A stretch of DNA of 64,000 nucleotides. Source: Candidatus Woesearchaeota archaeon (GTDB lineage Archaea; Nanobdellota; Nanobdellia; Woesearchaeales; UBA525). Location: assembly GCA_028818155.1 (NCBI GenBank), contig JAPPOH010000001.1, forward strand, positions 192,598 through 256,597, given 5' to 3'. Each line of letters opens with the position of its first letter. The stretch's first letter is position 1. Under the pieces are notes generated by a model, which did not search any database, had not been told where the DNA came from, and saw nothing but the letters and a program-made list of their open reading frames with translations. This document shows positions 8,350 through 40,113 of the stretch, piece by piece. Both the position numbers and the translations under genes were made by a program.

Positions 8350-10143
8350 ATGGGGGATACAATGAACAAACTACTCGCATACGCCACGGTACTCTTACTC
8401 GTACCACTCGTCCTCGCGATGCCGCGAGGAACACTTGAAGAACGACAAGCATTCCACGATACTGTCTCACTCGCATCGAACACGTACACATGCGGGGACG
8501 GCATTCGTTGCGAAGCGTACATCAACATTCCGATTCGTGATCGAAAAGCGATCGCGCGCAACAAAGATATTTTCTTCAGCCTTGCATACCTCAACGGCAC
8601 AGAAAGTAACTACACGATCAACTATGAAGTGGGACACTACGAGAAGAAGAAAGAGCGAACATATGTACAACGCTGTCGTACCGTGCAAGAGCGGAATGGC
8701 TCAACAGGCGAGCGGTGCAGAAATGTCCCGCGAACAAAGCAGGTGCGAGAGCTCGTGTGGCACGGCCAACACTTCGTGCCGGGCATGAATGTCTTACACC
8801 TGTGGTCTGATGACAAACCAGCAGATGCAATCGTCGACTGGAACTTCCGTATACCTGAAACGCCTGTGCAGATGCGACACAAGAACACAGAGAAGATGTT
8901 CCGCACAGACTTTGACACGCGCGTGAAGGGCTGGGCGATCTGGGGGGACCCTGACTGGGAGTGGCAGAATAGTAGCTTCAGTAAACGACGAACATTCGCA
9001 CTTGACGAAAGCGGAAGGACAAACACACCGGTCCTTGTCACGATCGCAGACCTCAGCACAACGGGGAATGGATTTGCAGTCTACACAGAGCAAGACGAGC
9101 AGAAACCACTCACGTACCTTGATGCAGAGGAACACATCACAACACCGGGGAACGCAACACACATACTCTTCACGGCTGATAGTGGGGAGACCTACTTTCT
9201 CTATTATGAGAACACAACAGCAGTCCCAGGAACAAACGCCTTTCTCGTCTGGGACAGGTTCACTGACTCGACAAATAGTCTGCCATGGACGGAGCGCCTT
9301 GGCTCGTGGACCTATACAACTTACGCGAACAAAGCAGGCATAGGCCACGTGACGTACGATGTAGCGAACCTCTATGACTACAAAGATCTTGGCACGTTCG
9401 CCCGCGTCCTCTACACGACAAGAGGGGATGGCCTCAGGTTCGCGTGGCGTGACAGTACTACAGGAAATTTAGGCGCTGACGGCTCACGGATGGTTTGTGA
9501 CTTCGGCCCGAGCAAGTACCGATGCTTCGGTAACGGGTACGCAGACCTGCGCGGGAATGGTGGCGCAACGAATGTGTGGCATGATTACACGTTCCGCATT
9601 GGGACGTCAGGGCTCATCCTCTATGAAGATGAAGGCGGCCCACTCATCACATTCACCACGCCAAACGATGCGCAAATCGGCCCCGCAACACAAAACCGTG
9701 TTGGGATGGGCGGACAAGAATCTGGCGCTGGACGGTTTGATGACTATGCGCTCTGGAACTGGACGCTCCTCGGCAGAGTCAACTTTTACGACAGTCTGAG
9801 TACCACCTACCAGCTTGGCGCTGAACAAGGCGGGAGCAGTATTGATGAGGAAGCTGCACGAGCAGCGATCTACGACGGACTAAACCAATCAGTGCTCGCA
9901 GGAAACTATAGTGCAAGCGAAGACCAGGACCTTGTCGTCAGGTACCAGAACGGCACGATCATCGAGGACACCCTAGATATCTTCGTTGCGAACGGCATGA
10001 CGCGCTGGGCGTTCGACTACACAAACACGACAGCGACAAGCATCGTGAACATCACACCTGCCTTTTACGTGTGGACAGGGATGGGGATGACCGCATCAGA
10101 GATCATTGACAGCGTACGGACATTCGTGGATGGAACTGCATGA
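8350..10143 (+). CDS. Secreted DUF2341/LamG-like protein
   Basis: Signal-like MNKLLAYATVLLLVPLVLA. TYFLYYENT resembles the DUF2341 YYGN block. GRFDDYALWNWTL resembles a laminin-G/ConA-like C-terminal strand. Many N-x-S/T sequons. Confidence 0.45.
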   Translation: MGDTMNKLLAYATVLLLVPLVLAMPRGTLEERQAFHDTVSLASNTYTCGDGIRCEAYINIPIRDRKAIARNKDIFFSLAYLNGTESNYTINYEVGHYEKKKERTYVQRCRTVQERNGSTGERCRNVPRTKQVRELVWHGQHFVPGMNVLHLWSDDKPADAIVDWNFRIPETPVQMRHKNTEKMFRTDFDTRVKGWAIWGDPDWEWQNSSFSKRRTFALDESGRTNTPVLVTIADLSTTGNGFAVYTEQDEQKPLTYLDAEEHITTPGNATHILFTADSGETYFLYYENTTAVPGTNAFLVWDRFTDSTNSLPWTERLGSWTYTTYANKAGIGHVTYDVANLYDYKDLGTFARVLYTTRGDGLRFAWRDSTTGNLGADGSRMVCDFGPSKYRCFGNGYADLRGNGGATNVWHDYTFRIGTSGLILYEDEGGPLITFTTPNDAQIGPATQNRVGMGGQESGAGRFDDYALWNWTLLGRVNFYDSLSTTYQLGAEQGGSSIDEEAARAAIYDGLNQSVLAGNYSASEDQDLVVRYQNGTIIEDTLDIFVANGMTRWAFDYTNTTATSIVNITPAFYVWTGMGMTASEIIDSVRTFVDGTA

Positions 10144-13100
10144 AGCTCTTGTTTGTGTTTTGTGTGAGCATGCTGCTCCTCATGAACTGCGCGTACGGGA
10201 TGCCAGAACAGAAGCTCTCGCCACGAGCGAAGGCGATGCTGGAAGCACACCCTGACATGCCGAGAGAACTCATCATCCAATACAAGAAAGAGAAGATGCA
10301 CATGATGCGAACAAAGCACACGGACGCATGGAAGCACAAGCGCGTGCGCGCAGAGCGAATGAAGCTGGCAAGACTGCACGCAGACATGCAGGACATTGAG
10401 CGCGTCGAGCTGGATCAGGATATCACGACGAAAGAACTCACGTGGAACGTCGAGCGCGTCGCAGGTATGTGGACAGGTGCTGGCGGATCTGGCGTGACTG
10501 TCGCAGTCCTCGATACAGGGTTCACACACGACGACCTTGCTGTTACAGGATGGAACGTCCTGCTTGAGAACCAGAATAGCACGGATACGAACGGGCATGG
10601 CACGTCAGTTGCGAGCGTTGTGCATGCTGTGGCGCCTGAAACGGCGATTGTACCCGTAAAGATTATGAATACGAACATCGGAAGTTTAAGTGATGCGATC
10701 GCGGGGTTGTCATGGGCGATAGAACAAGAGGTGGATGTTGCTGTGTTGAGCTTTGGCTTCCCTGAACGATCAGAGATCTTCAACGACCTCGTACAAGAGG
10801 CGTATGATAATGGGATGCTCCTCGTTGGCGCGTCCGGAAATGACGGGGGCCCAGTGTTATATCCAGCAGCGTATGACGATGTAATAGCTGTTGGCGCAAC
10901 GGAAAGTGATGATACACTCGCAGGGTTCAGCAATCGCGGATTTTCGCAAGAACTTGTTGCGCCAGGCGTGGACGTTCCTGTCATGACTCTCACAGGATAT
11001 GGCACTGCTACTGGTACGTCGCTTGCAGCCCCACACGTCGCGGGGGTTGCCGCGCTCTTCCTGAGCGAAGGACGTTCATCGAGTGACACTCGTGCCTCCT
11101 TACGCTCGGGCGCGCTTGATCTTGCACCTGCGGGCAAGGATAGCAAACACGGCTTCGGGTTGGTACAGGCTGTCCTTGCTGATGGAGAGGTGAATGACTC
11201 TTATTCGTATGACGTGTATAATGTAACAGATTATGGCTTAGAAAGCGAGACGATTGTGTACTGGACCTCTGGGGTTGGCACAATAGATAATCTTTCTTTC
11301 GCGGACGGCGTGTATATTGTGACGCGGGACGGCGTGAATAGCACGATGATTGTTGGAGAAAATGGCAGTGTTGGCACGCTTGCTGTTGGGGGCGACTTAC
11401 TCTTCTTTGACTCGTACACAGTTGATGGCACGGACATGGATGGTGCGCTCTGGGTAGGAGATACAATCACGATCGGTGTTGACCCGGCAACAACGCCATT
11501 GCCCTTCTCTGTCTTGGATGGCGAGTGTCATAGTGGTGATGGGGACCCGAGCTCAAACTTTGACGCGTGCTGGTTTGATACAGCAACAAAACGTGATGAC
11601 TGTGATGCGCACACGGGATTCGTTCATTGCGGGAGTATCACCTCGTGCAATATTGACGATGTTGGTGAGAACAGAACTGGTATTGTGGATACGAGCTCCA
11701 CGTTGTACCAGAATCAGCGCGCGCGACTCTATGATAATTGCTTTGACACGGTGCCTGATTTTTGGACGACGAATGAGCGGTATGTGCTCGTGATGGATGA
11801 GAAGCGCTCCACGTGTGTGAATAGCACGCACTACGCGTACGAAGGACGATATACAGGAAGCAATTGGGCAGCGTACCATACGGATGCGTGCCCTGGTTCT
11901 TGTGTGCAAGGACTGACTACTACGGAAAGCTCGAGGAATATACCATTGAGCCCGCCGTGCGATGGTTGTGTGGGGAGTGGTGTTGTTCGAGCGATCGTTG
12001 CGGTTGATGGCAGCGCTGCTGTGGGGTATCCTGTCCGGCTGAACAATGTATATGTTGGCGAAACTGATAGTGTTGGCACACTCGACATGCATGTGGGTGC
12101 AACTGGCTGTAGTGTTGCACAAGATGTAACGGTGTATTGTCAGGATAATACAACTGTGTGTGGCACGGATTCGACGTGGCTTGGCGCACTCGATGACACA
12201 GACTCCATGCTTTTTGACTGTACGTTAGCGTGCGGCTCTGGGAATGACTTGTATATGGAGCAAGCTGCTATTGTTGTTGCTGGGACAACAGTGACGGTTG
12301 GCGTCTCCTCTGTTGGCGTGACTGCCTCGAATGTTGCTGTACGTGTCGTCCGTGGGACTGCTGAGAATTTCTTTGCTGAGACAAGAGAAGATACAATCAG
12401 TGTGACGCCTGGCACTGTAACGGATGCGTCTGTAACCTTTAATGAATTAGCAGATGGGGATGTGCTGCGTATTTGGCTGGATGATACGCATGTTGTTGCA
12501 AACGAAGATAATACGAATAATTACGTGGAGCGGCAGGCGTTTAAGGATGTGAAGGTTCACATTGACTTCGATCTTCCTCCGCAGTTCAGTGTTTTAGAAG
12601 ACATATTCACTGAGTATATAGGTTCTGTGGCGGAGATTGTTACTCCTGGTGCTGCTGATGTACTACTTGAAGTAAAAACATACAAAAAGCCATTTTTTGG
12701 CGGGAAAAAATTCGTTATTGATGGCGAAGAGCAAGACAAACCATTCGCTGTGCGAATCAGTAAGGAGTTCACAGGTAAGCAGGAAATCACTGTTGAAGGA
12801 AAGGATATTGAAGGAGTTATCGTTGGACTGAAGCGATTTGTTGAGCGTATGCAATTCTTTGCTGCTCGAGGAAATGAGGAAGTATATTTGAAGGATACAG
12901 ATCCATTTGGCGTACGTATTTTTGATCAACTAGTTGCAGATGGAACGAATATTGTTCGAGATAATAGTCCAGCGGCGAGAGCGCTTGTTCGTGACGTGCT
13001 GTTTGATCAGAATTTCGAGGTTGCGATAAAACCAGTGAAGACGCCATTTGGTGCTTCCTATCCTGGCGATGTACTGTTGCGAGTGAAACACGTGAATGCT

Positions 13101-14060
13101 GATGTGAGTGAAGATTATCGAGAAGCATTTGGGGTTTCTACCAATCCTGTTGTGTTTAGCGGCGGTCTCTTTTCAAATATCGAAGCGTGGGAGGGGGATG
13201 GCGGCCTCGCTGCACAAATGGCTCGTGAAGGATGGGATGTGTGGTCTATCGAGATGACTGGTGGACCGAATACTGAGTGCGACACGTGTCCAAACTATAC
13301 GTACAGTGATCTTGTTGATTTCCACTGGCCAGCATCGATTGCCGGTGTGATGACATACGCAGATACGAATAAGATTGACTATGTCGGACACTCGAATGGT
13401 TGTCGTGCTGCATTAAGTTCCTTACATGAGTATTCGAATAGCGGGAAGAATAGTGCCGGCTATTATTTGGATGAGACTGGGTCGTTTGCTGCAGCTGATT
13501 TGCCAGCACTCCCTGTTGATCGTTTTGTTGGAGTGGGATGTCCGAGTGTGTTGAATGAAGAAAGTACGTTCACAACTGTTTCCCGTATTAGTCGCTCTAC
13601 CGGAGAGAAGAATGGCGATTTTGCTATCAGAAAGACTTCGAGCAAGAAGCATGTAAACCTCGGCGACTACTCAAAGTGGCTTGTAACTCCTGATGTTTTA
13701 CTTCCGCCACAAATTATTGGAGATGATATAGCACGTGTGATTTTTTGGACTGGAGCAACACTCGTTTCTCCAAATAAAATTTCACACAATTTGATGAACT
13801 TCTATAGTGACCTTGCTGTTAATCCATCAAGTTCTTTGAACTTTAATGGTGTGAATGTGAGTGAATTGCATTTATTTGCTACAAAAATGAGCGATATTGT
13901 AGTTCCAATCAATGACTCTTATGATATAGAAGATGACGTTAAGATTAATCAAGACGATAAGAGCATAATTGTTTATGAACTCCAGCCATTTGAGACAGAC
14001 CACGTTTTTATTAAAGACTTTAAAGAGTTTATAGATGAAGCTAAGGTGATACTAAAATGA
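10140..14060 (+). CDS. Subtilisin-like serine protease (S8) fused to a long C-terminal region containing a lipase-like alpha/beta-hydrolase domain
   Basis: S8 triad blocks VAVLDTGF (Asp), NGHGTSVASV (His), GASGNDG (Asn) and GTSLAAPHVAG (Ser). Lipase nucleophile elbow DYVGHSNGCRAAL near residue 1090. ATGA overlap with the upstream gene. Confidence 0.85.
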   Translation: MKLLFVFCVSMLLLMNCAYGMPEQKLSPRAKAMLEAHPDMPRELIIQYKKEKMHMMRTKHTDAWKHKRVRAERMKLARLHADMQDIERVELDQDITTKELTWNVERVAGMWTGAGGSGVTVAVLDTGFTHDDLAVTGWNVLLENQNSTDTNGHGTSVASVVHAVAPETAIVPVKIMNTNIGSLSDAIAGLSWAIEQEVDVAVLSFGFPERSEIFNDLVQEAYDNGMLLVGASGNDGGPVLYPAAYDDVIAVGATESDDTLAGFSNRGFSQELVAPGVDVPVMTLTGYGTATGTSLAAPHVAGVAALFLSEGRSSSDTRASLRSGALDLAPAGKDSKHGFGLVQAVLADGEVNDSYSYDVYNVTDYGLESETIVYWTSGVGTIDNLSFADGVYIVTRDGVNSTMIVGENGSVGTLAVGGDLLFFDSYTVDGTDMDGALWVGDTITIGVDPATTPLPFSVLDGECHSGDGDPSSNFDACWFDTATKRDDCDAHTGFVHCGSITSCNIDDVGENRTGIVDTSSTLYQNQRARLYDNCFDTVPDFWTTNERYVLVMDEKRSTCVNSTHYAYEGRYTGSNWAAYHTDACPGSCVQGLTTTESSRNIPLSPPCDGCVGSGVVRAIVAVDGSAAVGYPVRLNNVYVGETDSVGTLDMHVGATGCSVAQDVTVYCQDNTTVCGTDSTWLGALDDTDSMLFDCTLACGSGNDLYMEQAAIVVAGTTVTVGVSSVGVTASNVAVRVVRGTAENFFAETREDTISVTPGTVTDASVTFNELADGDVLRIWLDDTHVVANEDNTNNYVERQAFKDVKVHIDFDLPPQFSVLEDIFTEYIGSVAEIVTPGAADVLLEVKTYKKPFFGGKKFVIDGEEQDKPFAVRISKEFTGKQEITVEGKDIEGVIVGLKRFVERMQFFAARGNEEVYLKDTDPFGVRIFDQLVADGTNIVRDNSPAARALVRDVLFDQNFEVAIKPVKTPFGASYPGDVLLRVKHVNADVSEDYREAFGVSTNPVVFSGGLFSNIEAWEGDGGLAAQMAREGWDVWSIEMTGGPNTECDTCPNYTYSDLVDFHWPASIAGVMTYADTNKIDYVGHSNGCRAALSSLHEYSNSGKNSAGYYLDETGSFAAADLPALPVDRFVGVGCPSVLNEESTFTTVSRISRSTGEKNGDFAIRKTSSKKHVNLGDYSKWLVTPDVLLPPQIIGDDIARVIFWTGATLVSPNKISHNLMNFYSDLAVNPSSSLNFNGVNVSELHLFATKMSDIVVPINDSYDIEDDVKINQDDKSIIVYELQPFETDHVFIKDFKEFIDEAKVILK

Positions 14061-14542
14061 AGGTTGCGTATAGCTTAATTTTGGGCGCTGTAATGACTTA
14101 CTTTTTTAGCTATAGTACTTTGGTCATTCACAGTCCTTCTGGTGCAAACATTTTTGCAACTTTACTTTTGTTTGCAAGTATTAGTGCCGTGGGTTACTTT
14201 ACCTACGACTTCGTTGTCTCAAGAAAGTATGGGTTGGAGCTATCATCTAGCTTGCTTGCAGGTTTAATTCTAGGATTTATTTATTCTATCATTATAGTGA
14301 TATATTCTAGGTATTTCCTGCCTAGTGATTTCAATACAGTTATTCAATTTAACAAGGATTCTAGACTATTTTTGCCATTCATCGTAATTTTTACTAGTGT
14401 TCTTTGGACTTTTATGAAGTCGAAGAAAATTAGAATTGGTAGAGTCTTGAAAGTTCTCGGATATTACTTCCTTGCTTTTTTAACAAGTGGAACTTTATAC
14501 TACTCAATATTTATGATTTACTTCCTCGTTGAATGGAGTTAA
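14057..14542 (+). CDS. Hypothetical polytopic membrane protein
   Basis: 161 aa with 4-5 hydrophobic spans. AT-rich. 4-nt overlap with the protease gene. Confidence 0.55.
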   Translation: MKVAYSLILGAVMTYFFSYSTLVIHSPSGANIFATLLLFASISAVGYFTYDFVVSRKYGLELSSSLLAGLILGFIYSIIIVIYSRYFLPSDFNTVIQFNKDSRLFLPFIVIFTSVLWTFMKSKKIRIGRVLKVLGYYFLAFLTSGTLYYSIFMIYFLVEWS

Positions 14543-14543
14543 A

Positions 14544-16655
14544 ATGACAAAAACAAAACTAACAAAGTTGGCACTCACCCTACTTATAAGTATCTCGACG
14601 ATATCTCTTGCGTATGCAATGACTGTCGATGAGCTCATTGAAAGCTACGATTACGACTACGTTGGCAGCGTCAACGTCACGAACGCAACAGACTACCTCG
14701 ATGACACACTCACTATCAACATCACAACGAACACAACAGGCAACTACTACGTCACAATAACTCTTTTCGACACGATCACACTCACAAACACGACAAACAC
14801 AAGCATCATAGCAAACCAGCCAACAAGCATCACGTTCAACGAGAGAGACTTGCAGAAGAACCAGTACAATTACACGATCGAAATCCACGATCAAGACCTG
14901 AACCTCCAGTACAGGAAGTACAAGACAGCAACAAACGTGTACGCATTCGAGCAAGGAACACAAGTCACCAGCATCACAGACCAGAACACAGGGAACATCT
15001 ACCTCACAATAACACTCAACAACACCATCAACGAGACAACAAACGCCACAGTCTACCTCGACTACAACAATCACACAATCCAACACACAGAAACCGTCAC
15101 GATAACAGCACCACACGACACGATCACCCTCACCATCCCAAACGAGACGATCAAAGCAACACACTACAACGGACCATACACCATCAAAACACTCCAGCTC
15201 GGCACTACATACATCCAAACAAATCACACAACAGCATCGTACAACTACGAAGACTTTGCAACAGACTACATCAAGAACATCACGATCACAGAGATAGATA
15301 ACAACAGCAACAACCTCACGGACGAGCTCATTCTGACTTACACTGTTGTGACTGGTGGCGGTCAGTACACTGCTTCAGGGACCCTCGCACGGTCAACGGC
15401 GCACACTGCTGCCACCAGCACAACTCTCCCGGCAGGGACGAGCGAGATCACCCTCACAATACATGGGGAGGACATCTACGCAGCGAAAGAATCCGGCACG
15501 TTCACACTCGTGAGCGCAACGCTCACAGGACCAGCAAACGATTCCATTAACAATGCGCTCACAACAGAACTCCAATACACGAGCTTCGAGCCGCCAGCGA
15601 GACCAGATATCACGCTCACACTCGTACAAGCAGAGCCATTCATCGTCACCGTCGCAAACGAAGGAGCAGTGCCTGCAGCAAACATCATAATTGACATTTT
15701 CAACGATGACGTGTACGAGAACCAAACTGTCATTAACACATTGAACGCGAGCGAAGCAACAAATCTCACGTTCCACCCACCAGCAAACACGATCGTCACA
15801 GCAATCGCAGACTTCAACAACGAGATAGACGAGGAAAACGAGACGAATAACATCGTGAACAACCTCGAGGCAATCATGAACGTCCAAATCTCTTCCCTAA
15901 GTGCTGGCATACTCGAAGGTGTCATCGCAAATAACGGTAACCAACTCTTGGAAAATGTCTCATGGAACCTTTCATTCGGTGATGGAACAACGCTCGCAAG
16001 CACAGCTGCCACGGACCTTCCACCCGGCGAGCGCACCATCATCATCGCAGCACACACCTACCCAGGTGGCACGTACAACGCAACCCTCACCGGCATCGCA
16101 AATGAAACAGCGGAAGCAACGATCACCATCGATGCACGGCCAATAACTGTTGAGCCATTCACAACACTCTATGAGCAAGACACGCACATGGTACTTGAAG
16201 GAAGTATTACAGGGGGTACAACAGGCACCATCACAATAGGAGAAGAGACACGCCCAGTCACATTCAACACACCGATCGTTCTCATCGAAGCAGCATTCCA
16301 GCAACCAGGACTCAACACACTTAACGTTTCTGCCACGAGCGACGGGTTTACTGACACACGCGTGATCACGACAACGATTGCGGAGCTCTTCCTCGAAGCG
16401 GTACAACTCGCAGCAAGTGGCACGACAGGCATCATCGAGTTCACCGCACAAAACCTCTTTGAGCAGAACACCACATTCAACTGGACGTATGATACAGGAA
16501 GTGTTATCCTCCCAGGGAGCGAGATCACGCTCACAAACCAGAGCAATGTGACAGTACTCCTTGAACATGACTTCGGCAGCACGGGAACATATGCAACGAC
16601 TGTGCTTGCAGACACAAGGACAATCTACGAGGAAGCTGTGGAGGTGGTTGTTTGA
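14544..16655 (+). CDS. Secreted Thr/Asn-rich CARDB-domain protein, probably heavily N-glycosylated
   Basis: Signal peptide MTKTKLTKLALTLLISISTISLAYA. CARDB-like block VTVANEGAVPAANIIIDIF...ADFNNEIDEENETNN. At least 15 N-x-S/T sequons in the first ~280 aa. Confidence 0.7.
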   Translation: MTKTKLTKLALTLLISISTISLAYAMTVDELIESYDYDYVGSVNVTNATDYLDDTLTINITTNTTGNYYVTITLFDTITLTNTTNTSIIANQPTSITFNERDLQKNQYNYTIEIHDQDLNLQYRKYKTATNVYAFEQGTQVTSITDQNTGNIYLTITLNNTINETTNATVYLDYNNHTIQHTETVTITAPHDTITLTIPNETIKATHYNGPYTIKTLQLGTTYIQTNHTTASYNYEDFATDYIKNITITEIDNNSNNLTDELILTYTVVTGGGQYTASGTLARSTAHTAATSTTLPAGTSEITLTIHGEDIYAAKESGTFTLVSATLTGPANDSINNALTTELQYTSFEPPARPDITLTLVQAEPFIVTVANEGAVPAANIIIDIFNDDVYENQTVINTLNASEATNLTFHPPANTIVTAIADFNNEIDEENETNNIVNNLEAIMNVQISSLSAGILEGVIANNGNQLLENVSWNLSFGDGTTLASTAATDLPPGERTIIIAAHTYPGGTYNATLTGIANETAEATITIDARPITVEPFTTLYEQDTHMVLEGSITGGTTGTITIGEETRPVTFNTPIVLIEAAFQQPGLNTLNVSATSDGFTDTRVITTTIAELFLEAVQLAASGTTGIIEFTAQNLFEQNTTFNWTYDTGSVILPGSEITLTNQSNVTVLLEHDFGSTGTYATTVLADTRTIYEEAVEVVV

Positions 16656-16695
16656 TAGATCATGTAGAGAGTAAACTGATTCAATATTAACAGGC

Positions 16696-18279
16696 ATGGT
16701 AAAATTGGGAAAGAAAAGAAAAGAAAGTAAAGAGATATTCAGCAAGAAGTTCTTCTTACTTTGGTCAATTCTTTTCTTCTTTCCTTATTCGCTGTCATAT
16801 GCAGGGCACTTAGGATCTGTTGTGGGTTTCGAGCCACTTACACTTCCTTATTCTATCTTAATTGAAGCAATGTTCTTTTTCCCCTGGTTCTTTCTTATAA
16901 TCTATTTTTTTCCGACCAACCTGATAATGAGTTTTGTCGCAGCAGTCTTACTTGCAAATATGTACATAGAGTGTGAGCTTTTTAGGAAGTGTGTAATGAA
17001 AACATACAGAATTCTATGCAATAGGAAGACTTCCATAATCTTGAGCTGTATTTTTTTGTGCTTCTTTCTTGGGATGAGCTACAATCATTTACTTTTTGAA
17101 CACAACAAAAACTTAGAGAAAGACAAATTCTGCAAGTTTATGATTCCCTCAGATTCTAAGAGTTTCTGCTACTTTCAACTAGCAAAGAATTCAGAGAAGA
17201 AGGAAGATTGTGAAAAAGCTACTAGCCACAAAGGATGTAAGAAGATAGTTGCAGAAACAAGAACGCTGGATGTTTCAATTTGCGGTGATCCAAGTGCAGG
17301 TCATTCTGGTAGCTGCGTACGAGATGTAATTTTAAGTGTTGAGAGTGTCATGCAAAGAAGAATCAACTCAGATAATTTTTGCACACCTGAGGATGATATC
17401 TGCTTGGTTGATAATTTCAAATTGAAATACACTGTTGGAAATATGAAATTATTCTTGAAGGTAAACTCGAATGTTGAAAGAGAAGTAAGCGTATCTAGCA
17501 CACTATGCAGGTCATATGATGGGATTTTCAAGCCTGTAGAATGTAGGATTATGAACTATTCAGAGCATATTCTAAAAAGCGGAACGAATGATATAGTGTT
17601 AGAATACTCTGCAGATGAGTATCTTAAGCAGAGACTGGCTTATGGAAAGCCAATTGGTATTAAATTTATCAAAATTGATTTGCCAAATGGATCTTTCGTG
17701 GGTGCGTATGATTTGGAGTATGTTGGAGAGTGGTATCAAATAAAAAATGAGTATATTCGAGATGCAGAAGAGCGAATCACGGATACGAAAATGCATGACT
17801 TATTTATGGGGAATGTCAGCTCAGAAACTTGCTCTGCTATACAAAGTGTAGTAGAGGAATCTTACAATAAAAACACTAAGAGCTTAACAGATGTTCCCAC
17901 ATGGCTATGTTGGCTCAAAAGTACGGACTGTTCTGGGGCTAACGATTGGGGTTATGAATGTGGCTTTGCTAGAGATGGCAGAAGCCTATCATTTTGTGAA
18001 GATAACCCAAGATGTTCTTGGTCAAATATACTTCTTGAAGGAGGAGTCAAAAGAAATTACACTGGCTTCAGAGAAAATGCTTTCTGGTCTATTGTTAACG
18101 GAAATATCAAAACATGTTACAATAACCAAGGAATGCTTGACTATTGCCTCAGAAACACAGGTTTGCTCTGGTTAGACTGTGAAGCATGCTCTCTGATGCT
18201 GAACACAACAGGTGAGATGATTTGCAAAAAAACAATAGAGATGCTCTCAGATGGAAAGATTATGTGTGATATCACATGA
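16696..18279 (+). CDS. Hypothetical membrane-anchored Cys-rich protein
   Basis: N-terminal hydrophobic spans followed by a roughly 380-aa Cys-rich domain. About 33% GC in one hand-counted line (16861). Confidence 0.55.
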   Translation: MVKLGKKRKESKEIFSKKFFLLWSILFFFPYSLSYAGHLGSVVGFEPLTLPYSILIEAMFFFPWFFLIIYFFPTNLIMSFVAAVLLANMYIECELFRKCVMKTYRILCNRKTSIILSCIFLCFFLGMSYNHLLFEHNKNLEKDKFCKFMIPSDSKSFCYFQLAKNSEKKEDCEKATSHKGCKKIVAETRTLDVSICGDPSAGHSGSCVRDVILSVESVMQRRINSDNFCTPEDDICLVDNFKLKYTVGNMKLFLKVNSNVEREVSVSSTLCRSYDGIFKPVECRIMNYSEHILKSGTNDIVLEYSADEYLKQRLAYGKPIGIKFIKIDLPNGSFVGAYDLEYVGEWYQIKNEYIRDAEERITDTKMHDLFMGNVSSETCSAIQSVVEESYNKNTKSLTDVPTWLCWLKSTDCSGANDWGYECGFARDGRSLSFCEDNPRCSWSNILLEGGVKRNYTGFRENAFWSIVNGNIKTCYNNQGMLDYCLRNTGLLWLDCEACSLMLNTTGEMICKKTIEMLSDGKIMCDIT

Positions 18280-28023: not shown

Positions 28024-28095
28024 AGCCCCCGGAGAGATTTGAACTCCCGACCTGCGGTTTACAAAACCGCCGCTCTACCGCTGAGCTACGGAGGC
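28024..28095 (-). tRNA. tRNA-Thr (anticodon UGU), no encoded CCA
   Basis: Hand-folded cloverleaf: GCCTCCG/CGGGGGC acceptor, GCTC/GAGC D stem, GCGGT-TTTGTAA-ACCGC anticodon arm, GGGAG-TTCAAAT-CTCTC T arm. Confidence 0.9.
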
Positions 28096-37669: not shown

Positions 37670-38047
37670 TTAGTTCGCTACAGTAGCAGACAGAGATGCT
37701 GCAGGGCGAGGCCGATCTCTCACGGCGTAGAGTGAGACTGCGTGCAGTGAGTATCTTCTTCCCCAGACAGTTTGCTTAGTTGCTGGACCACTCGTGAAAC
37801 CGATCGCTCCACCGCTTTCTCTCGCAGCAACAACAGCACCTCCTGCCGAACCACTATTGATGTACGATCTGACGCCTTCTTCAAGCAATTGAAGATTCTC
37901 CCTACCTCTATATCTGATAATTGTTGCAGCTTCAAGTGGTATGAGATTCCCCTCGACGGGATGCATGTGATCAGCATCTGCGTAATTGAGCGGATGCACT
38001 TTTGAATCAGCATGTGCTATTCGAACAAGTCGTAGTTCATCTGCCAT
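37670..38047 (-). CDS. Hypothetical protein (125 aa)
   Basis: TATA (plus-strand TATTTAAA at 38069-38076) is centred 27 nt from the ATG at 38047. Confidence 0.5.
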   Translation of the reverse strand: MADELRLVRIAHADSKVHPLNYADADHMHPVEGNLIPLEAATIIRYRGRENLQLLEEGVRSYINSGSAGGAVVAARESGGAIGFTSGPATKQTVWGRRYSLHAVSLYAVRDRPRPAASLSATVAN

Positions 38048-38108
38048 GCTGCTGTGATTCCCCTCACATATTTAAACGTATCCCTTATCGAGTAGTAGTT
38101 GCCAAACC

Positions 38109-38116
38109 TTTAAATA
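38109..38116 (+). promoter_or_regulatory. TATA box of the thrS leader transcript
   Basis: TTTAAATA, centred about 27-29 nt upstream of the uORF ATG at 38142. Eleven other genes and tRNAs in this window show similar spacing. Confidence 0.6.
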
Positions 38117-38141
38117 GAGCAGTGTGCTTTAGACTTCCAGT

Positions 38142-38177
38142 ATGATTCTCACAACGAGAACCACGACAACGGCGTGA
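38142..38177 (+). CDS. Candidate Thr-rich leader peptide MILTTRTTTTA upstream of thrS
   Basis: ATG ATT CTC ACA ACG AGA ACC ACG ACA ACG GCG TGA. Six Thr in seven consecutive codons. It begins at the predicted transcription start, and its stop lies 22 nt before the thrS ATG. Confidence 0.5.
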   Translation: MILTTRTTTTA

Positions 38178-38199
38178 GGCGCGCCATCTTCTCAACTTC

Positions 38200-40113
38200 A
38201 TGGTGCACGAAATGAACATCCAGATAACACTCCCGGACGGAACAGTACAAACGCACAAGAAAGGCAGCACGCCATTCGACGTCGCGAAGGGCATTTCTGA
38301 TGGACTGGCCAGGGCAACCATCGCCGCAAAAGTGAATGATGAGCTCGTCGACAGAACAAAAAAATTAGAAAAAGATTGCACACTCCAACTCCTCACGCTC
38401 AAAGATGAAGAGGGCATCTATATTCTCCGGCACAGCTGTGCACACACGTGCGCGCAAGCAGTGAAACGACTCTATCCGGAGGCACTCCAGACCATCGGCC
38501 CTGTCATAGAACATGGCTTCTACTTCGACTTTGACAATCTCGACATCTCAGATGAGGATCTACCGAAGATAGAAGCGGAAATGAAAACAATCGTGAAAGA
38601 AAAACACGGCGTCACAAGAAAGGATTACAAAAACGCACAAGAAGCGAAAGCAGACTACAAAAACAACTCCTACAAAATCGACCTCATCGAAGAACACAAG
38701 GAAGAAGGACTCAGCAGGTACGATCAAGGAGAATACCATGACCTCTGTCGAGGACCACACGCACCGGATACGAGCTGGGCGGACGCGTTCACACTCACAC
38801 ACGTCGCGAAAGCATACTGGCGCGGCAAATCTGAGAATAAACAGCTCACACGCATCTACGGGCTCTGCTTCCCTAAGAAGAAAGAATTGAACGCACACAA
38901 GGAAATGCTCGAGCAAGCAAAGAAGCGCGATCACAGAAAACTCGCAAAAGAGCTTGATCTCGTGATGTTTCACGAGCATAGCCCGGGTGCACCGTTCTTC
39001 CTGCCAAAAGGCGCTGTCATGTACGAGCAACTCATGGAGCTGATCAGAGAACTCTATAGAGCACGAGGATACGATGAGGTCATCACGCCACTCATCTACA
39101 ATAAAGAGCTCTTCAAAACATCCGGTCACTGGGACCACTACAGAGAGAACATGTTCCATACAACAGTCGAAGGACAAGAATTCGCGCTCAAGCCGATGAA
39201 CTGCCCGAGCCACTGCCTGCTCTTCCAGCGAGACGCACACAGTTACAGAGATCTACCGCTCCGCATCGCGGATTTCGCACCCTTACACAGGAACGAACTC
39301 TCTGGTACACTTTCAGGGCTCACACGCGTCAGGAAGTTCAGTCAAGATGATGCACACATCTTCTGCGCGCCAGAACAGTTAGAGGAAGAACTCAAAGGCG
39401 TAATGGAGTTCATCGAACATATCTTCACAGAGGTCTTCAAGATGGAATACCACGTGGAATTATCTACGAGACCAGCAAAGTTCATGGGCGAAATAGCACT
39501 CTGGGACCAAGCGGAAGCACAGCTCAAGACGGTCCTTGAGGATTTGCAGATCAAGTATACAGTGAATGAAGGAGATGGCGCGTTCTACGGGCCAAAAATT
39601 GATGTGCATGTGAAAGATGCGATTGGTAGGAGCCATCAATTGAGCACGAACCAAGTGGACTTTCAAATGCCACAACGCTTCAAGTTAGAATATGAAGGCG
39701 CGGACGGCAAGAAACACACACCGGTCATGGTACACAGAGCAATCTTCGGCAGCTTCGAACGATTCTTCGGTATTTTAGTAGAGCACTACGAAGGAAAGTT
39801 CCCCGTATGGCTCTCACCGGAACAAGTTCGTGTCCTCCCCATCGCGGACAGACACGTTGCGCATGCCGCGTTGGTTGTGGAACAATGCAAGCAGGCAGGA
39901 ATTCGAGTGACGTTAGATGATCGCCACCTAACAACAAATAAGAAAGTGCGCGAAGCACAACTGGAGCAAGTGAACTACATTCTTGTTGTCGGCGATAGAG
40001 AAGTAGAGAGTAAGACTGTCAACGTCCGTACGAGAGACAATGAAATTCTCGGGGAGAAACAGGTTGAAGAATTCATAGCTACAGTAACTGCTCTGGTACA
40101 AAGTCGCCAATAA
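38200..40113 (+). CDS. thrS: Threonyl-tRNA synthetase (bacterial/eukaryal-type architecture: TGS, editing and class II core)
   Basis: TGS-like IQITLPDGTVQTHKKGSTPFDVA, editing-domain HSCAH, HRKLAKELDL, class II motifs and the anticodon-binding C-terminus. Alternative ATG at 38212. Confidence 0.95.
   Translation: MVHEMNIQITLPDGTVQTHKKGSTPFDVAKGISDGLARATIAAKVNDELVDRTKKLEKDCTLQLLTLKDEEGIYILRHSCAHTCAQAVKRLYPEALQTIGPVIEHGFYFDFDNLDISDEDLPKIEAEMKTIVKEKHGVTRKDYKNAQEAKADYKNNSYKIDLIEEHKEEGLSRYDQGEYHDLCRGPHAPDTSWADAFTLTHVAKAYWRGKSENKQLTRIYGLCFPKKKELNAHKEMLEQAKKRDHRKLAKELDLVMFHEHSPGAPFFLPKGAVMYEQLMELIRELYRARGYDEVITPLIYNKELFKTSGHWDHYRENMFHTTVEGQEFALKPMNCPSHCLLFQRDAHSYRDLPLRIADFAPLHRNELSGTLSGLTRVRKFSQDDAHIFCAPEQLEEELKGVMEFIEHIFTEVFKMEYHVELSTRPAKFMGEIALWDQAEAQLKTVLEDLQIKYTVNEGDGAFYGPKIDVHVKDAIGRSHQLSTNQVDFQMPQRFKLEYEGADGKKHTPVMVHRAIFGSFERFFGILVEHYEGKFPVWLSPEQVRVLPIADRHVAHAALVVEQCKQAGIRVTLDDRHLTTNKKVREAQLEQVNYILVVGDREVESKTVNVRTRDNEILGEKQVEEFIATVTALVQSRQ

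What the first reader, a model, noticed from the sequence alone, without database searches (positions are those of the whole stretch)
38109..38214. Leaderless Thr-rich uORF (MILTTRTTTTA) plus a start-codon-sequestering hairpin upstream of threonyl-tRNA synthetase
What the sequence shows:
- TATA TTTAAATA at 38109-38116 is centred about 27-29 nt before the ATG at 38142. Similar spacing holds for eleven other genes and tRNAs in this window, so the transcript should begin at this ATG.
- The ATG opens ATG ATT CTC ACA ACG AGA ACC ACG ACA ACG GCG TGA, with six Thr in seven consecutive codons. Its stop lies 22 nt before the thrS ATG at 38200.
- GCGCCAT (38181-38187) can pair with ATGGTGC (38200-38206), giving 6 Watson-Crick pairs and 1 G-U pair with a 12-nt loop. 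This buries the thrS start codon.
- GGCG (38171-38174) can alternatively pair with CGCC (38182-38185).

A run of codons for the cognate amino acid in front of the gene that charges that tRNA is the hallmark of ribosome-mediated leader-peptide control, as in the bacterial thr, his and trp leaders. I know of no described leader-peptide control of an archaeal aaRS. The direction of regulation cannot be deduced from sequence alone.
Basis: partly seen in the sequence, partly recalled or inferred. Interest (0 to 1): 0.85.

Follow-up and report, generated by a model that had tools for sequence, protein, structure and literature searches.

The report
Threonine-rich leader ORF before archaeal thrS
In a Woesearchaeota (DPANN archaeon) genome, the threonyl-tRNA synthetase gene is preceded by a tiny reading frame made mostly of threonine codons; the same frame occurs at the same place in two distant relatives, so it is probably a ribosome-based threonine sensor of a kind so far described only in bacteria.

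Summary
The sequence features are real. An archaeal BRE/TATA (38102-38116) sits 25 nt before ATG 38142, which opens MILTTRTTTTA* (38142-38177).

This is the only 7-codon stretch with 6 or more Thr in all six frames of the window. Two orthologous, syntenic loci from other assemblies (ThrRS 70% and 66% identical; GC 52% and 67%) carry promoter-proximal uORFs ending in the same ...IL...TTTTA-stop. They use different Thr and Ala codons and different stop codons. "TTTTA*" occurs three times in 1.05 Mb of fetched DNA, and all three are these thrS leaders. The uORF is therefore conserved at the coding level.

- thrS starts at 38212, not 38200.
- The hairpin 38181-38206 covers an SD-like GGUG, not the start codon.
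- That hairpin is no more stable than shuffles and is not conserved.

In this window it competes with a second hairpin (38171-38185). A modelled ribosome on the last Thr codons shifts the balance strongly (p<0.004, metric chosen post hoc). The predicted polarity differs between orthologues.

Eight other close relatives lack the uORF and one is uninformative. No archaeal precedent turned up in the literature searches. The closest analogues are leaderless leader ORFs of actinobacteria. I rate it a new variant of a known kind; its function is untested.

The parts
38102..38116 (+). Archaeal promoter: BRE-like CCAAACC (38102-38108) followed by TATA box TTTAAATA (38109-38116)
   Evidence: Sequence. 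The same [A/C]ACC + T/A-rich octamer sits at the same distance before two tRNA genes and many ATGs in the window, and before thrS in leaderless orthologues. The transcription start is inferred, not mapped.
38142..38177 (+). Leader ORF (uORF) MILTTRTTTTA*. The ATG lies 25 nt after the TATA box, so it is at or within a few nt of the predicted transcript 5' end (leaderless).
   Evidence: Orthologous uORFs: L161:1391-1456 (in-frame GTG at 1382), MTYELTKVNDILLASITTTTA*; L166:1375-1443 (in-frame GTG at 1366), MARTYTTGNDILTTTATTTTTA*.
38151..38171 (+). Thr codon run: ACA ACG (38151-38156), AGA, then ACC ACG ACA ACG (38160-38171). This is the presumed sensing codons.
   Evidence: The codons used are the common Thr codons of each genome. 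Differences between the three loci fall only at third codon positions.
38146..38160 (+). Small hairpin inside the uORF (UUCUC / GAGAA, 5-nt loop). Significance unknown.
   Evidence: MFE and centroid structures. Not conserved in L161 or L166.
38171..38185 (+). Hairpin 1: GGCGUG / CGCGCC with triloop AGG. It spans the last Thr nucleotide, the Ala codon and the UGA stop. It is mutually exclusive with hairpin 2.
   Evidence: Centroid structure, about -9.1 kcal/mol.
38181..38206 (+). Hairpin 2: GCGCCAU / AUGGUGC with a 12-nt loop. It covers the SD-like GGUG and the in-frame ATG at 38200.
   Evidence: MFE structure, -11.0 kcal/mol with outer pairs. Favoured when a ribosome is modelled on the last Thr codons.
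38202..38205 (+). SD-like GGTG, 6 nt before the thrS start codon
   Evidence: Sequence. GGTGA is used at similar spacing before gene 28714. L161 has GAGGAGG and L166 has GGAGG at the equivalent place.
38212..40113 (+). thrS: bacterial-type threonyl-tRNA synthetase (TGS, tRNA_SAD, tRNA-synt_2b and HGTP_anticodon domains), 633 aa. True start is 38212.
38069..38076 (-). TATA box of the divergent neighbour gene (37670-38047, minus strand). It marks the left limit of the thrS control region.

Best explanation
The transcript that carries thrS starts at or just before ATG 38142. It first encodes an 11-codon leader peptide with six Thr codons.

Ribosomes load on this 5'-terminal AUG, as they appear to do for most genes of this genome. 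Their speed through the Thr run reports the supply of charged tRNA-Thr, which is the product of ThrRS.

Ribosome position then sets how accessible the thrS ribosome-binding site is (GGUG 38202-38205, AUG 38212). It does so by choosing between two mutually exclusive hairpins:
- Hairpin 1 (38171-38185) leaves the site open.
- Hairpin 2 (38181-38206) covers it.

Shown here: the uORF, its promoter context, its coding-level conservation in two other genomes, and the existence and competition of the two hairpins.

Inferred: translation of the uORF, Thr-dependent pausing, coupling to thrS translation, and above all its direction.
For: 1. Rarity. This is the only 6-of-7 Thr window in six frames of 64 kb.

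2. Conservation. L161 and L166 are independent assemblies with ThrRS 70% and 66% identical and GC 52% and 67% against 49% here. Both share the AI-2E / FKBP / thrS synteny. Both have promoter-proximal uORFs ending in ...IL...TTTTA* directly upstream of thrS. 'TTTTA*' occurs exactly 3 times in 2.09 million six-frame codons of the window plus 170 loci, and all three are these leaders.

3. Coding signature. Within the shared T-T-T-T-A-stop block, every difference is at a third codon position or within the stop codon (TGA/TAA/TAG). The Thr codons follow each genome's own usage.

4. Promoter. The TATA-to-ATG distance matches leaderless genes and tRNA genes of the window. thrS has no TATA of its own, so it must be the second cistron. 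L161 and L166 each have an in-frame GTG 31 nt after the start of their TATA.

5. Switch. The modelled RBS opening energy is 4.3 kcal/mol for free RNA. It rises to 6.3-11.0 with the A site on the last four Thr codons and falls to 3.3 with the ribosome at the stop codon. This is robust to footprint 3' edges of +12 to +18. The rise of 6.7 kcal/mol was reached by 0 of 300 shuffles of the spacer.

6. Precedent. Mycobacterial leaderless poly-Cys sORFs work by stalled ribosomes changing RBS-sequestering structures (10.1101/834739). Streptomyces has leaderless leader peptides before leuS, trpS, alaS and thrS (PMC8079986).
Against: - Only three instances exist. Eight other close orthologues lack the uORF and one is uninformative. 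Of these, L162, L163, L164, L168, L170 and L081 have a TATA about 30 nt before thrS. L165 and L167 have a different 5'UTR. L169 has an assembly gap at the thrS start.
- No structure is conserved among the three leaders, and their folds are not more stable than shuffles (z = 0.0, -1.35, +0.83).
- The modelled polarity is inconsistent. In the window, a ribosome on the last Thr codons closes the RBS. In L161, a ribosome on the first two Thr codons opens it and one at the stop codon closes it. L166 stays flat near 10 kcal/mol.
- The window polarity (pausing lowers ThrRS synthesis) is not homeostatic.
- The switch statistic was chosen after seeing the data.
- There are no expression data of any kind.
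Confidence: 0.45

Rival explanations
1. The sensor is the same, but the output does not depend on RNA structure. The Thr-run uORF is translated and senses Thr-tRNA. It then acts through the ribosome itself. One route: a ribosome paused near the 5' end protects the leaderless mRNA from 5'-to-3' decay, as with ermC-type 5' stabilisers in Bacillus. Another route: pausing changes the flow of ribosomes that reinitiate at thrS, 34-57 nt downstream.
For: - The only features common to all three leaders are the 5'-terminal position of the uORF, the Thr run, the Ala-stop ending and a downstream SD. No hairpin is shared.
- The structure models disagree in polarity.
Against: - There is no direct evidence.
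- The window's spacer shows a ribosome-position-dependent RBS switch that 0 of 300 shuffles reach.
- Spacers of 34, 44 and 57 nt are long for termination-reinitiation coupling.
- Whether these organisms have a 5'-to-3' exonuclease was not tested.
Confidence: 0.2
2. The uORF is conserved but not a threonine sensor. It is translated constitutively and tunes or enables thrS translation on a leaderless-type transcript, for example by ribosome loading or reinitiation. Alternatively it is a slowly decaying relic. The Thr richness has no regulatory meaning.
For: - Most relatives manage with a leaderless thrS, so the element is dispensable.
- L165 has a 5-codon, promoter-proximal uORF, MCRHL*, without any Thr.
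- Leader ORFs have been proposed to raise downstream translation by reinitiation (PMC4833913).
Against: - It does not explain why the part conserved across genomes of 49-67% GC is specifically the Thr run in front of the Thr-specific synthetase.
- It does not explain why the changes there are all synonymous.
Confidence: 0.15
3. The element works as RNA, not as a reading frame. The ACN-ACN-ACN repeat is bound by a factor: tRNA-Thr anticodons as with a T-box specifier, ThrRS itself, or another protein. The open reading frame is incidental.
For: - ACN repeats are complementary to tRNA-Thr anticodons.
- 12 nt (AACGACATTCTC) are identical between L161 and L166, which could reflect RNA-level constraint.
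- Orthologues L165 and L167 carry an RNA stem-loop at this place instead.
Against: - In all three loci a start codon at the predicted 5' end, the frame and a stop codon directly after Ala are kept, while the stop codon itself changes (TGA/TAA/TAG).
- Variation is confined to third codon positions.
- There is no Rfam match, including T-box and Thr_leader, even at E up to 10 for the window leader and up to 1 for the four loci.
- There is no anticodon-like 7-nt loop in the window leader.
Confidence: 0.1
4. The uORF encodes a micropeptide that functions in trans.
For: The N-D-I-L and TTTTA residues are shared between loci.
Against: - Length varies from 11 to 25 residues.
- Only a low-complexity C-terminal block is shared.
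- The element is always placed in cis, directly before thrS.
Confidence: 0.05
5. The uORF is a chance ORF in an AC-rich intergenic region.
For: It is short. Folding statistics of the leader are unremarkable.
Against: - With 6.4% Thr, roughly 0.06 such windows are expected in 128,000 six-frame codons. One is observed, directly before thrS.
- The motif recurs at the orthologous site in two other assemblies and nowhere else in 1.05 Mb.
Confidence: 0.02

Closest known systems
Leaderless leader peptides upstream of aaRS genes in Streptomyces (leuL2-leuS, trpL2-trpS, alaL-alaS, thrL-thrS; PMC8079986; also leuS and trpS attenuators in PMC1262725)
   Same: - A short ORF starts at the transcript 5' end.
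- It is enriched in codons for the cognate amino acid.
- It lies directly upstream of the matching aminoacyl-tRNA synthetase gene.
- Some of them lack a clear U-tract terminator.
   Different: - Those are in Bacteria, this is in Archaea (archaeal BRE/TATA promoter).
- The proposed Streptomyces thrL has only two Thr, against six here and up to eleven in L166.
- There is no sequence homology.
- The Streptomyces elements are interpreted as transcription attenuators.
Mycobacterial poly-Cys leaderless sORF attenuators (Ms5788A; 10.1101/834739)
   Same: - A leaderless sORF carries a run of one amino acid's codons.
- Control is translational rather than by termination.
- A ribosome paused in the run remodels an RNA duplex that involves the downstream RBS.
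   Different: - It controls Cys metabolic operons, not an aaRS.
- Pausing there frees the RBS, whereas the model for this window predicts the opposite and the model for L161 the same.
- It is experimentally proven there and untested here.
E. coli thr operon leader (thrL, Rfam Thr_leader) and pheST leader (pheM)
   Same: - A leader peptide rich in the regulatory amino acid: thrL is [21 protein letters not shown] (from my own knowledge).
- pheM shows that an aaRS operon can be controlled in this way (cited in PMC1262725).
   Different: - Those are transcription attenuators with a terminator hairpin plus a U tract. No such site lies on the + strand here.
- There is no Rfam match.
- thrL controls biosynthesis genes, not thrS.
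E. coli thrS operator (ThrRS binds anticodon-arm mimics next to the SD) and Bacillus thrS T-box
   Same: They regulate the same gene, a bacterial-type ThrRS, through its 5' leader RNA.
   Different: - The window leader has no anticodon-like stem-loop.
- There is no T-box match.
- Orthologue L167, and less cleanly L165, do carry a stem-loop with a UGU-containing loop abutting the SD. That is a separate lead.
ermC / cat leader-peptide translational attenuation
   Same: A ribosome arrested in a short leader ORF switches alternative hairpins that involve the downstream RBS.
   Different: The trigger there is a drug plus a specific nascent peptide, not the supply of one aminoacyl-tRNA.

Membership tests
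Classical bacterial leader-peptide transcription attenuator (trp/his/thr/pheST type) | Short leader ORF with a run of codons for the regulatory amino acid | tested here: met
   6 Thr in 7 codons at 38151-38171. Conserved in L161 and L166.
Classical bacterial leader-peptide transcription attenuator (trp/his/thr/pheST type) | Intrinsic terminator (GC hairpin plus U tract) between the leader ORF and the gene | tested here: not met
   No terminator-like site on the + strand in 38000-38400. No run of four or more T in 38178-38211. L166 likewise has none. L161 has only TTTATTT.
Classical bacterial leader-peptide transcription attenuator (trp/his/thr/pheST type) | Mutually exclusive hairpins whose choice depends on ribosome position | tested here: inconclusive
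   Present in the window: 38171-38185 versus 38181-38206. Not alignable or consistent in L161 and L166.
Classical bacterial leader-peptide transcription attenuator (trp/his/thr/pheST type) | Match to the curated Rfam Thr_leader model or another leader model | tested here: not met
   No Rfam match at E up to 10 in 38050-38300, and none at E up to 1 in L161, L165, L166 or L167.
Translational attenuation by a leaderless amino-acid-run sORF (mycobacterial Cys type) | sORF begins at the transcript 5' end | tested here: inconclusive
   The TATA-to-ATG distance equals that of other leaderless-type genes and tRNA genes. No TSS data.
Translational attenuation by a leaderless amino-acid-run sORF (mycobacterial Cys type) | RNA duplex sequesters the downstream RBS when no ribosome is paused, and pausing in the run frees it | tested here: not met
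   Window: the free-state opening energy of 4.3 kcal/mol is lower than in 84% of spacer shuffles. A modelled pause on the last Thr codons closes the RBS (6.3-11.0). L161 partly fits, with a pause on the first two Thr codons giving 2.8-3.3 against 5.0 free. L166 is flat. These are thermodynamic models only.
Translational attenuation by a leaderless amino-acid-run sORF (mycobacterial Cys type) | Downstream gene expression responds to supply of the amino acid | not testable with these tools
   Uncultured organism known only from a metagenome-assembled genome. No expression data.
E. coli-type thrS operator (tRNA-Thr anticodon-arm mimic) | Stem-loop with a 7-nt anticodon-like loop (U33-NGU-R37) next to the SD | tested here: not met
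   None in the 120 nt upstream of thrS in the window. Among 119 loci scanned, only L167 has one close to the SD.
T-box riboswitch | Match to the T-box covariance model | tested here: not met

The most novel reading that the evidence does not exclude
This would be the first ribosome-mediated, amino-acid-sensing leader peptide in Archaea. A leaderless poly-Thr ORF would let DPANN archaea tune a bacterial-type ThrRS to Thr-tRNA supply without a bacterial terminator. Within one clade the element would be evolutionarily interchangeable with a leaderless thrS, and with a stem-loop next to the SD whose loop resembles the tRNA-Thr(UGU) anticodon loop (L165, L167). That would mean two different bacterial-style thrS control logics reinvented on archaeal transcripts.
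Probability: 0.4. Interest if true: 0.85.

Novelty: new variant of a known kind. Interest (0 to 1): 0.72.

Why it matters
Leader-peptide sensing of charged tRNA is a textbook bacterial mechanism. My searches of the held literature found no archaeal example.

If functional, this element would show three things:
- Archaeal ribosomes on leaderless mRNAs can serve as amino-acid sensors.
- Such control can work without bacterial intrinsic terminators.
- DPANN symbionts, which rely on imported amino acids, regulate an aaRS in cis.

It also gives a compact, testable construct: 110 nt from the TATA box to the thrS AUG, with natural variants that have and lack the uORF. It suggests a simple genome-wide screen for archaea: promoter-proximal short ORFs with a run of one amino acid in front of the cognate aaRS or transporter genes.

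Tried and rejected
It was useful only as a negative control set.
It gave a handful of DPANN loci, all with a leaderless-type thrS.
- The viral-contig scan found nothing.
Two returned no DNA (P0003 and P0006). One (L169) has an N-gap exactly at the thrS start.
- Covariation analysis of the hairpins was not possible. There are only three leaders and their spacers do not align.
- Thermodynamic ribosome-mask modelling gave no common polarity.
- A rare-codon hypothesis for the Thr run is rejected, because the leaders use each genome's common Thr codons.
- 'ACCACAACC' upstream of thrS in L162, L167 and L170 looked like a relic of a Thr run. I rejected this reading because it is the BRE-like motif directly before the TATA box.
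- A frameshift or readthrough fusion of the uORF to thrS is rejected. The frames differ and stop codons intervene.
- There is no other aaRS gene in the window on which to test generality.
Full report
**What is in the sequence**

- TTTAAATA at 38109-38116.
- ATG at 38142, opening ATG ATT CTC ACA ACG AGA ACC ACG ACA ACG GCG TGA (MILTTRTTTTA*, 38142-38177).
- The pairing GCGCCAT (38181-38187) with ATGGTGC (38200-38206).
- The alternative GGCG/CGCC pairing. RNAfold extends this to a 6-bp hairpin, GGCGUG(38171-76)/CGCGCC(38180-85).

The organism is a DPANN archaeon. The identical protein is named threonine--tRNA ligase of a 'Candidatus Woesearchaeota archaeon' MAG. The enzyme is the bacterial-type ThrRS with TGS, tRNA_SAD, class II core and anticodon-binding domains.

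**Correction of the gene start**

- The deposited protein is 633 aa and starts at ATG 38212 (MNIQITLPDG).
- In an alignment with 23 homologues, every sequence begins 1-3 residues before the I-x-I-T-[FL]-P-D motif. This matches 38212 and not 38200.
- GGTG at 38202-38205 lies 6 nt before 38212. GGTGA is used as an SD-like element elsewhere in the window, before gene 28714.

**Promoter and leaderless context**

- Many genes in the window have a T/A-rich box starting 29-33 nt before the ATG.
- The boxes of the two tRNA genes end 24 and 23 nt before the mature 5' end. The box of the uORF ends 25 nt before ATG 38142. All three are preceded by an [A/C]CC BRE-like motif.
- thrS has nothing resembling a TATA box 25-35 nt upstream of 38212 or 38200. 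It must therefore be transcribed from the 38109 promoter as the second reading frame of the transcript.
- This step is inferred from sequence. No TSS data exist.

**Is the Thr run chance?**

- In all six frames of the 64-kb window there is exactly one 7-codon stretch with at least 6 Thr, and it is this one.
- Of 625 short ATG-ORFs (5-40 codons), only ten have any residue at 5 of 7 or more. This is the only Thr case; the others are L, S, R or K runs.
- Thr makes up 6.4% of codons in the window's genes. About 0.06 such windows are therefore expected in the whole window (my arithmetic).

**Comparative test**

These served as controls. The informative loci came from exact-protein look-ups of the closest homologues, at 63-70% identity.

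Two loci carry a homologous leader ORF:
- L161: ThrRS 70% identical, GC 52%. Its uORF is MTYELTKVNDILLASITTTTA* (1391-1456).
- L166: ThrRS 66% identical, GC 67%. Its uORF is MARTYTTGNDILTTTATTTTTA* (1375-1443).

In both, an in-frame GTG lies 31 nt after the start of the TATA box, so the frame opens at the predicted 5' end.

Both loci share the window's gene order: AI-2E transporter, FKBP, thrS, then Aldedh or Lhr helicase further on. They are therefore orthologous sites.

Aligned, the three peptides share I-L, a Thr run and Ala-stop. In the T-T-T-T-A-stop block every nucleotide difference is at a third codon position or within the stop codon (TGA, TAA, TAG). Thr codon choice follows each genome's own usage.

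Background for the motif:
- 'TTTTA*' occurs three times in 2.09 million six-frame codons (1.05 Mb) of the window plus 170 loci. All three are these thrS leaders.
- Among 117 thrS upstream regions scanned, only L161 and L166 have a short Thr-rich uORF. Two further hits are long ORFs of 53 and 60 aa with only 4 of 7 Thr.

This is good evidence that the reading frame itself is under selection and is tied to thrS.

**The feature is patchy**

- L162, L163, L164, L168, L170 and L081, and the more distant DPANN loci, have the TATA box about 30 nt before the thrS ATG. Their thrS is leaderless.
- L165 and L167 have a 5'UTR of about 40 nt with a strong SD and a shared stem-loop.
- L169 has an assembly gap at the thrS start.
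- On a ThrRS tree the three uORF-bearing loci sit in two sub-branches. This implies either an old element with repeated loss or transfer.

**RNA structure**

The leader does not fold better than dinucleotide shuffles:
- Window: z = +0.69, 0.00 and +0.63 for three spans.
- L161: z = -1.35.
- L166: z = +0.83.

The spacers between uORF and thrS (34, 44 and 57 nt) do not align, so no covariation test is possible.

No Rfam family matches the window leader even at E = 10, and none matches L161, L165, L166 or L167 at E up to 1. This includes Thr_leader and T-box. There is no terminator-like site on the + strand. A bacterial-type transcription attenuator is therefore not supported.

**Ribosome-position modelling**

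I masked a 27-nt footprint at each codon and computed the energy needed to open positions -14 to +2 around the thrS start.

In the window:

| State | RBS opening energy (kcal/mol) |
|---|---|
| Free RNA | 4.3 |
| A site on the first two Thr codons | 3.4-3.5 |
| A site on the last four Thr codons | 6.3, 6.7, 9.2, 11.0 |
| Ribosome at the stop codon | 3.3 |

The cause is that a ribosome there blocks hairpin 1 and frees 38181-87 to close hairpin 2. The effect persists for footprint 3' edges of +12 to +18.

Spacer shuffles give the following:
- The rise of 6.7 kcal/mol was reached by 0 of 300 shuffles of the spacer.
- The free-state value is unremarkable: 84% of shuffles are at least as closed.

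So the window does carry an unusual two-state arrangement. Three caveats apply:
- The metric was chosen after seeing the data.
- The implied polarity (pausing lowers ThrRS synthesis) is not homeostatic.
- The orthologues disagree.

In L161 the conserved AUUCUCCUC inside the uORF pairs with the thrS SD GAGGAGG. There, a pause on the first two Thr codons opens the RBS (2.8-3.3 against 5.0 free) and a ribosome at the stop closes it (10.3). L166 stays near 10 kcal/mol throughout.

**Interpretation**

The best-supported reading is a translated, promoter-proximal Thr-run leader ORF that reports Thr-tRNA supply and acts in cis on thrS. I put about 0.8 on 'conserved functional element tied to thrS' and about 0.6-0.65 on 'Thr-tRNA sensor'. 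I put about 0.45 on the specific RBS-switch output and about 0.2 on a structure-independent output, such as mRNA protection by a 5' paused ribosome or altered ribosome flow. An RNA-only element, a non-sensing uORF, a micropeptide and chance are less likely, for the reasons given under the rival explanations.

**Comparison with known systems**

- aaRS genes controlled by leader peptides are known in bacteria: pheST in gamma-proteobacteria, and leuS and trpS in Streptomyces (PMC1262725).
- S. lividans has leaderless leader peptides before leuS, trpS, alaS and a weak one (two Thr) before thrS (PMC8079986).
- Mycobacteria use leaderless poly-Cys sORFs as translational attenuators through RBS-sequestering duplexes (10.1101/834739).

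The present element works like these. It is not a member by sequence or by the terminator criterion, and it sits on an archaeal promoter. Searches of the held literature for archaeal leader-peptide or uORF control of amino-acid or aaRS genes found none. That is absence of evidence in that library, not proof.

**Verdict**

- The core interpretation is supported by conservation.
- The hairpin mechanism is plausible in this window but is not conserved.
- Function is untested.
- Novelty: a new variant of a known kind, bacterial-style leader-peptide sensing on a leaderless archaeal transcript.
- Interest: 0.72.

Noticed in passing
L165:1468-1489 and L167:1468-1488 (directly before the SD GGAGG of thrS): Two orthologous thrS loci lack the Thr uORF. 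They share a stem-loop instead: UGUCGGC-AUUUGUAG-GUCGGCA in L165 and CCCCGGC-AUUGUAG-GUCGGGG in L167. The outer pairs show two compensatory changes. L167's 7-nt loop reads U-UGU-A, like positions 33-37 of the window's tRNA-Thr(UGU) loop UUUGUAA. This is a possible E. coli-like ThrRS operator mimic. L165's loop has 8 nt and holds the stop codon of a 5-codon promoter-proximal uORF, MCRHL*.
   Followed up: partly
window 38102-38108; also before the TATA boxes of tRNA-Thr (28024-28095, minus strand), tRNA-Val (54507) and thrS in L162, L163, L164, L167 and L170: A conserved [A/C]A[A/C]CC motif (e.g. CAACC, AAACC) directly abuts the TATA box. It is probably the BRE of this lineage. In some loci it reads ACC ACA ACC and can be mistaken for a Thr-codon relic.
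   Followed up: partly
window 37670-38047 (minus strand): A 125-aa ORF with its own leaderless-type TATA (38069-76, minus strand) and no Pfam match lies between FKBP and thrS. The syntenic loci L161, L162, L165, L166 and L167 have FKBP directly divergent from thrS. This looks like a lineage-specific insertion or an orphan gene.
   Followed up: no
window 38212-40113: The ThrRS of this archaeon is the bacterial type with the N2 editing domain (HSCAH motif). Outside DPANN its best matches in the species-representative genomes are bacteria at about 50% identity (Planctomycetota, Bacillota). This is consistent with an old bacterial acquisition by the Woesearchaeota/Nanoarchaeota lineage.
   Followed up: no
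window 12001-20000: GC content drops to 0.42-0.44 against about 0.49-0.53 elsewhere. The region covers large secreted-type ORFs: an S8 peptidase at 10140-14060, a CARDB protein at 14529-16655, and ORFs with no Pfam hit. It may be a foreign or fast-evolving surface-protein island.
   Followed up: no
window 22506-22568 and 22680-22742 (minus-strand frames inside ORF 21274-23001): Two near-identical short frames (MPSPSSSSQ[T/A]SP...) lie 174 nt apart. This indicates an internal tandem repeat in the 575-aa ORF on the + strand.
   Followed up: no
L161:1421-1429 versus L161:1485-1494: The conserved AUUCUC(CUC) inside the L161 uORF (codons I-L-L) is complementary to the thrS SD GAGGAGG and pairs with it in the MFE fold. 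The 12 nt AACGACATTCTC are identical in L161 and L166. The reason for this nucleotide-level identity is unexplained.
   Followed up: partly
L169:705-714: There is a run of 10 N (scaffold gap) exactly at the thrS start of the closest relative of L161. The deposited protein (P0022, 598 aa) is N-terminally truncated as a result. Whether a Thr leader is present there cannot be decided.
   Followed up: yes
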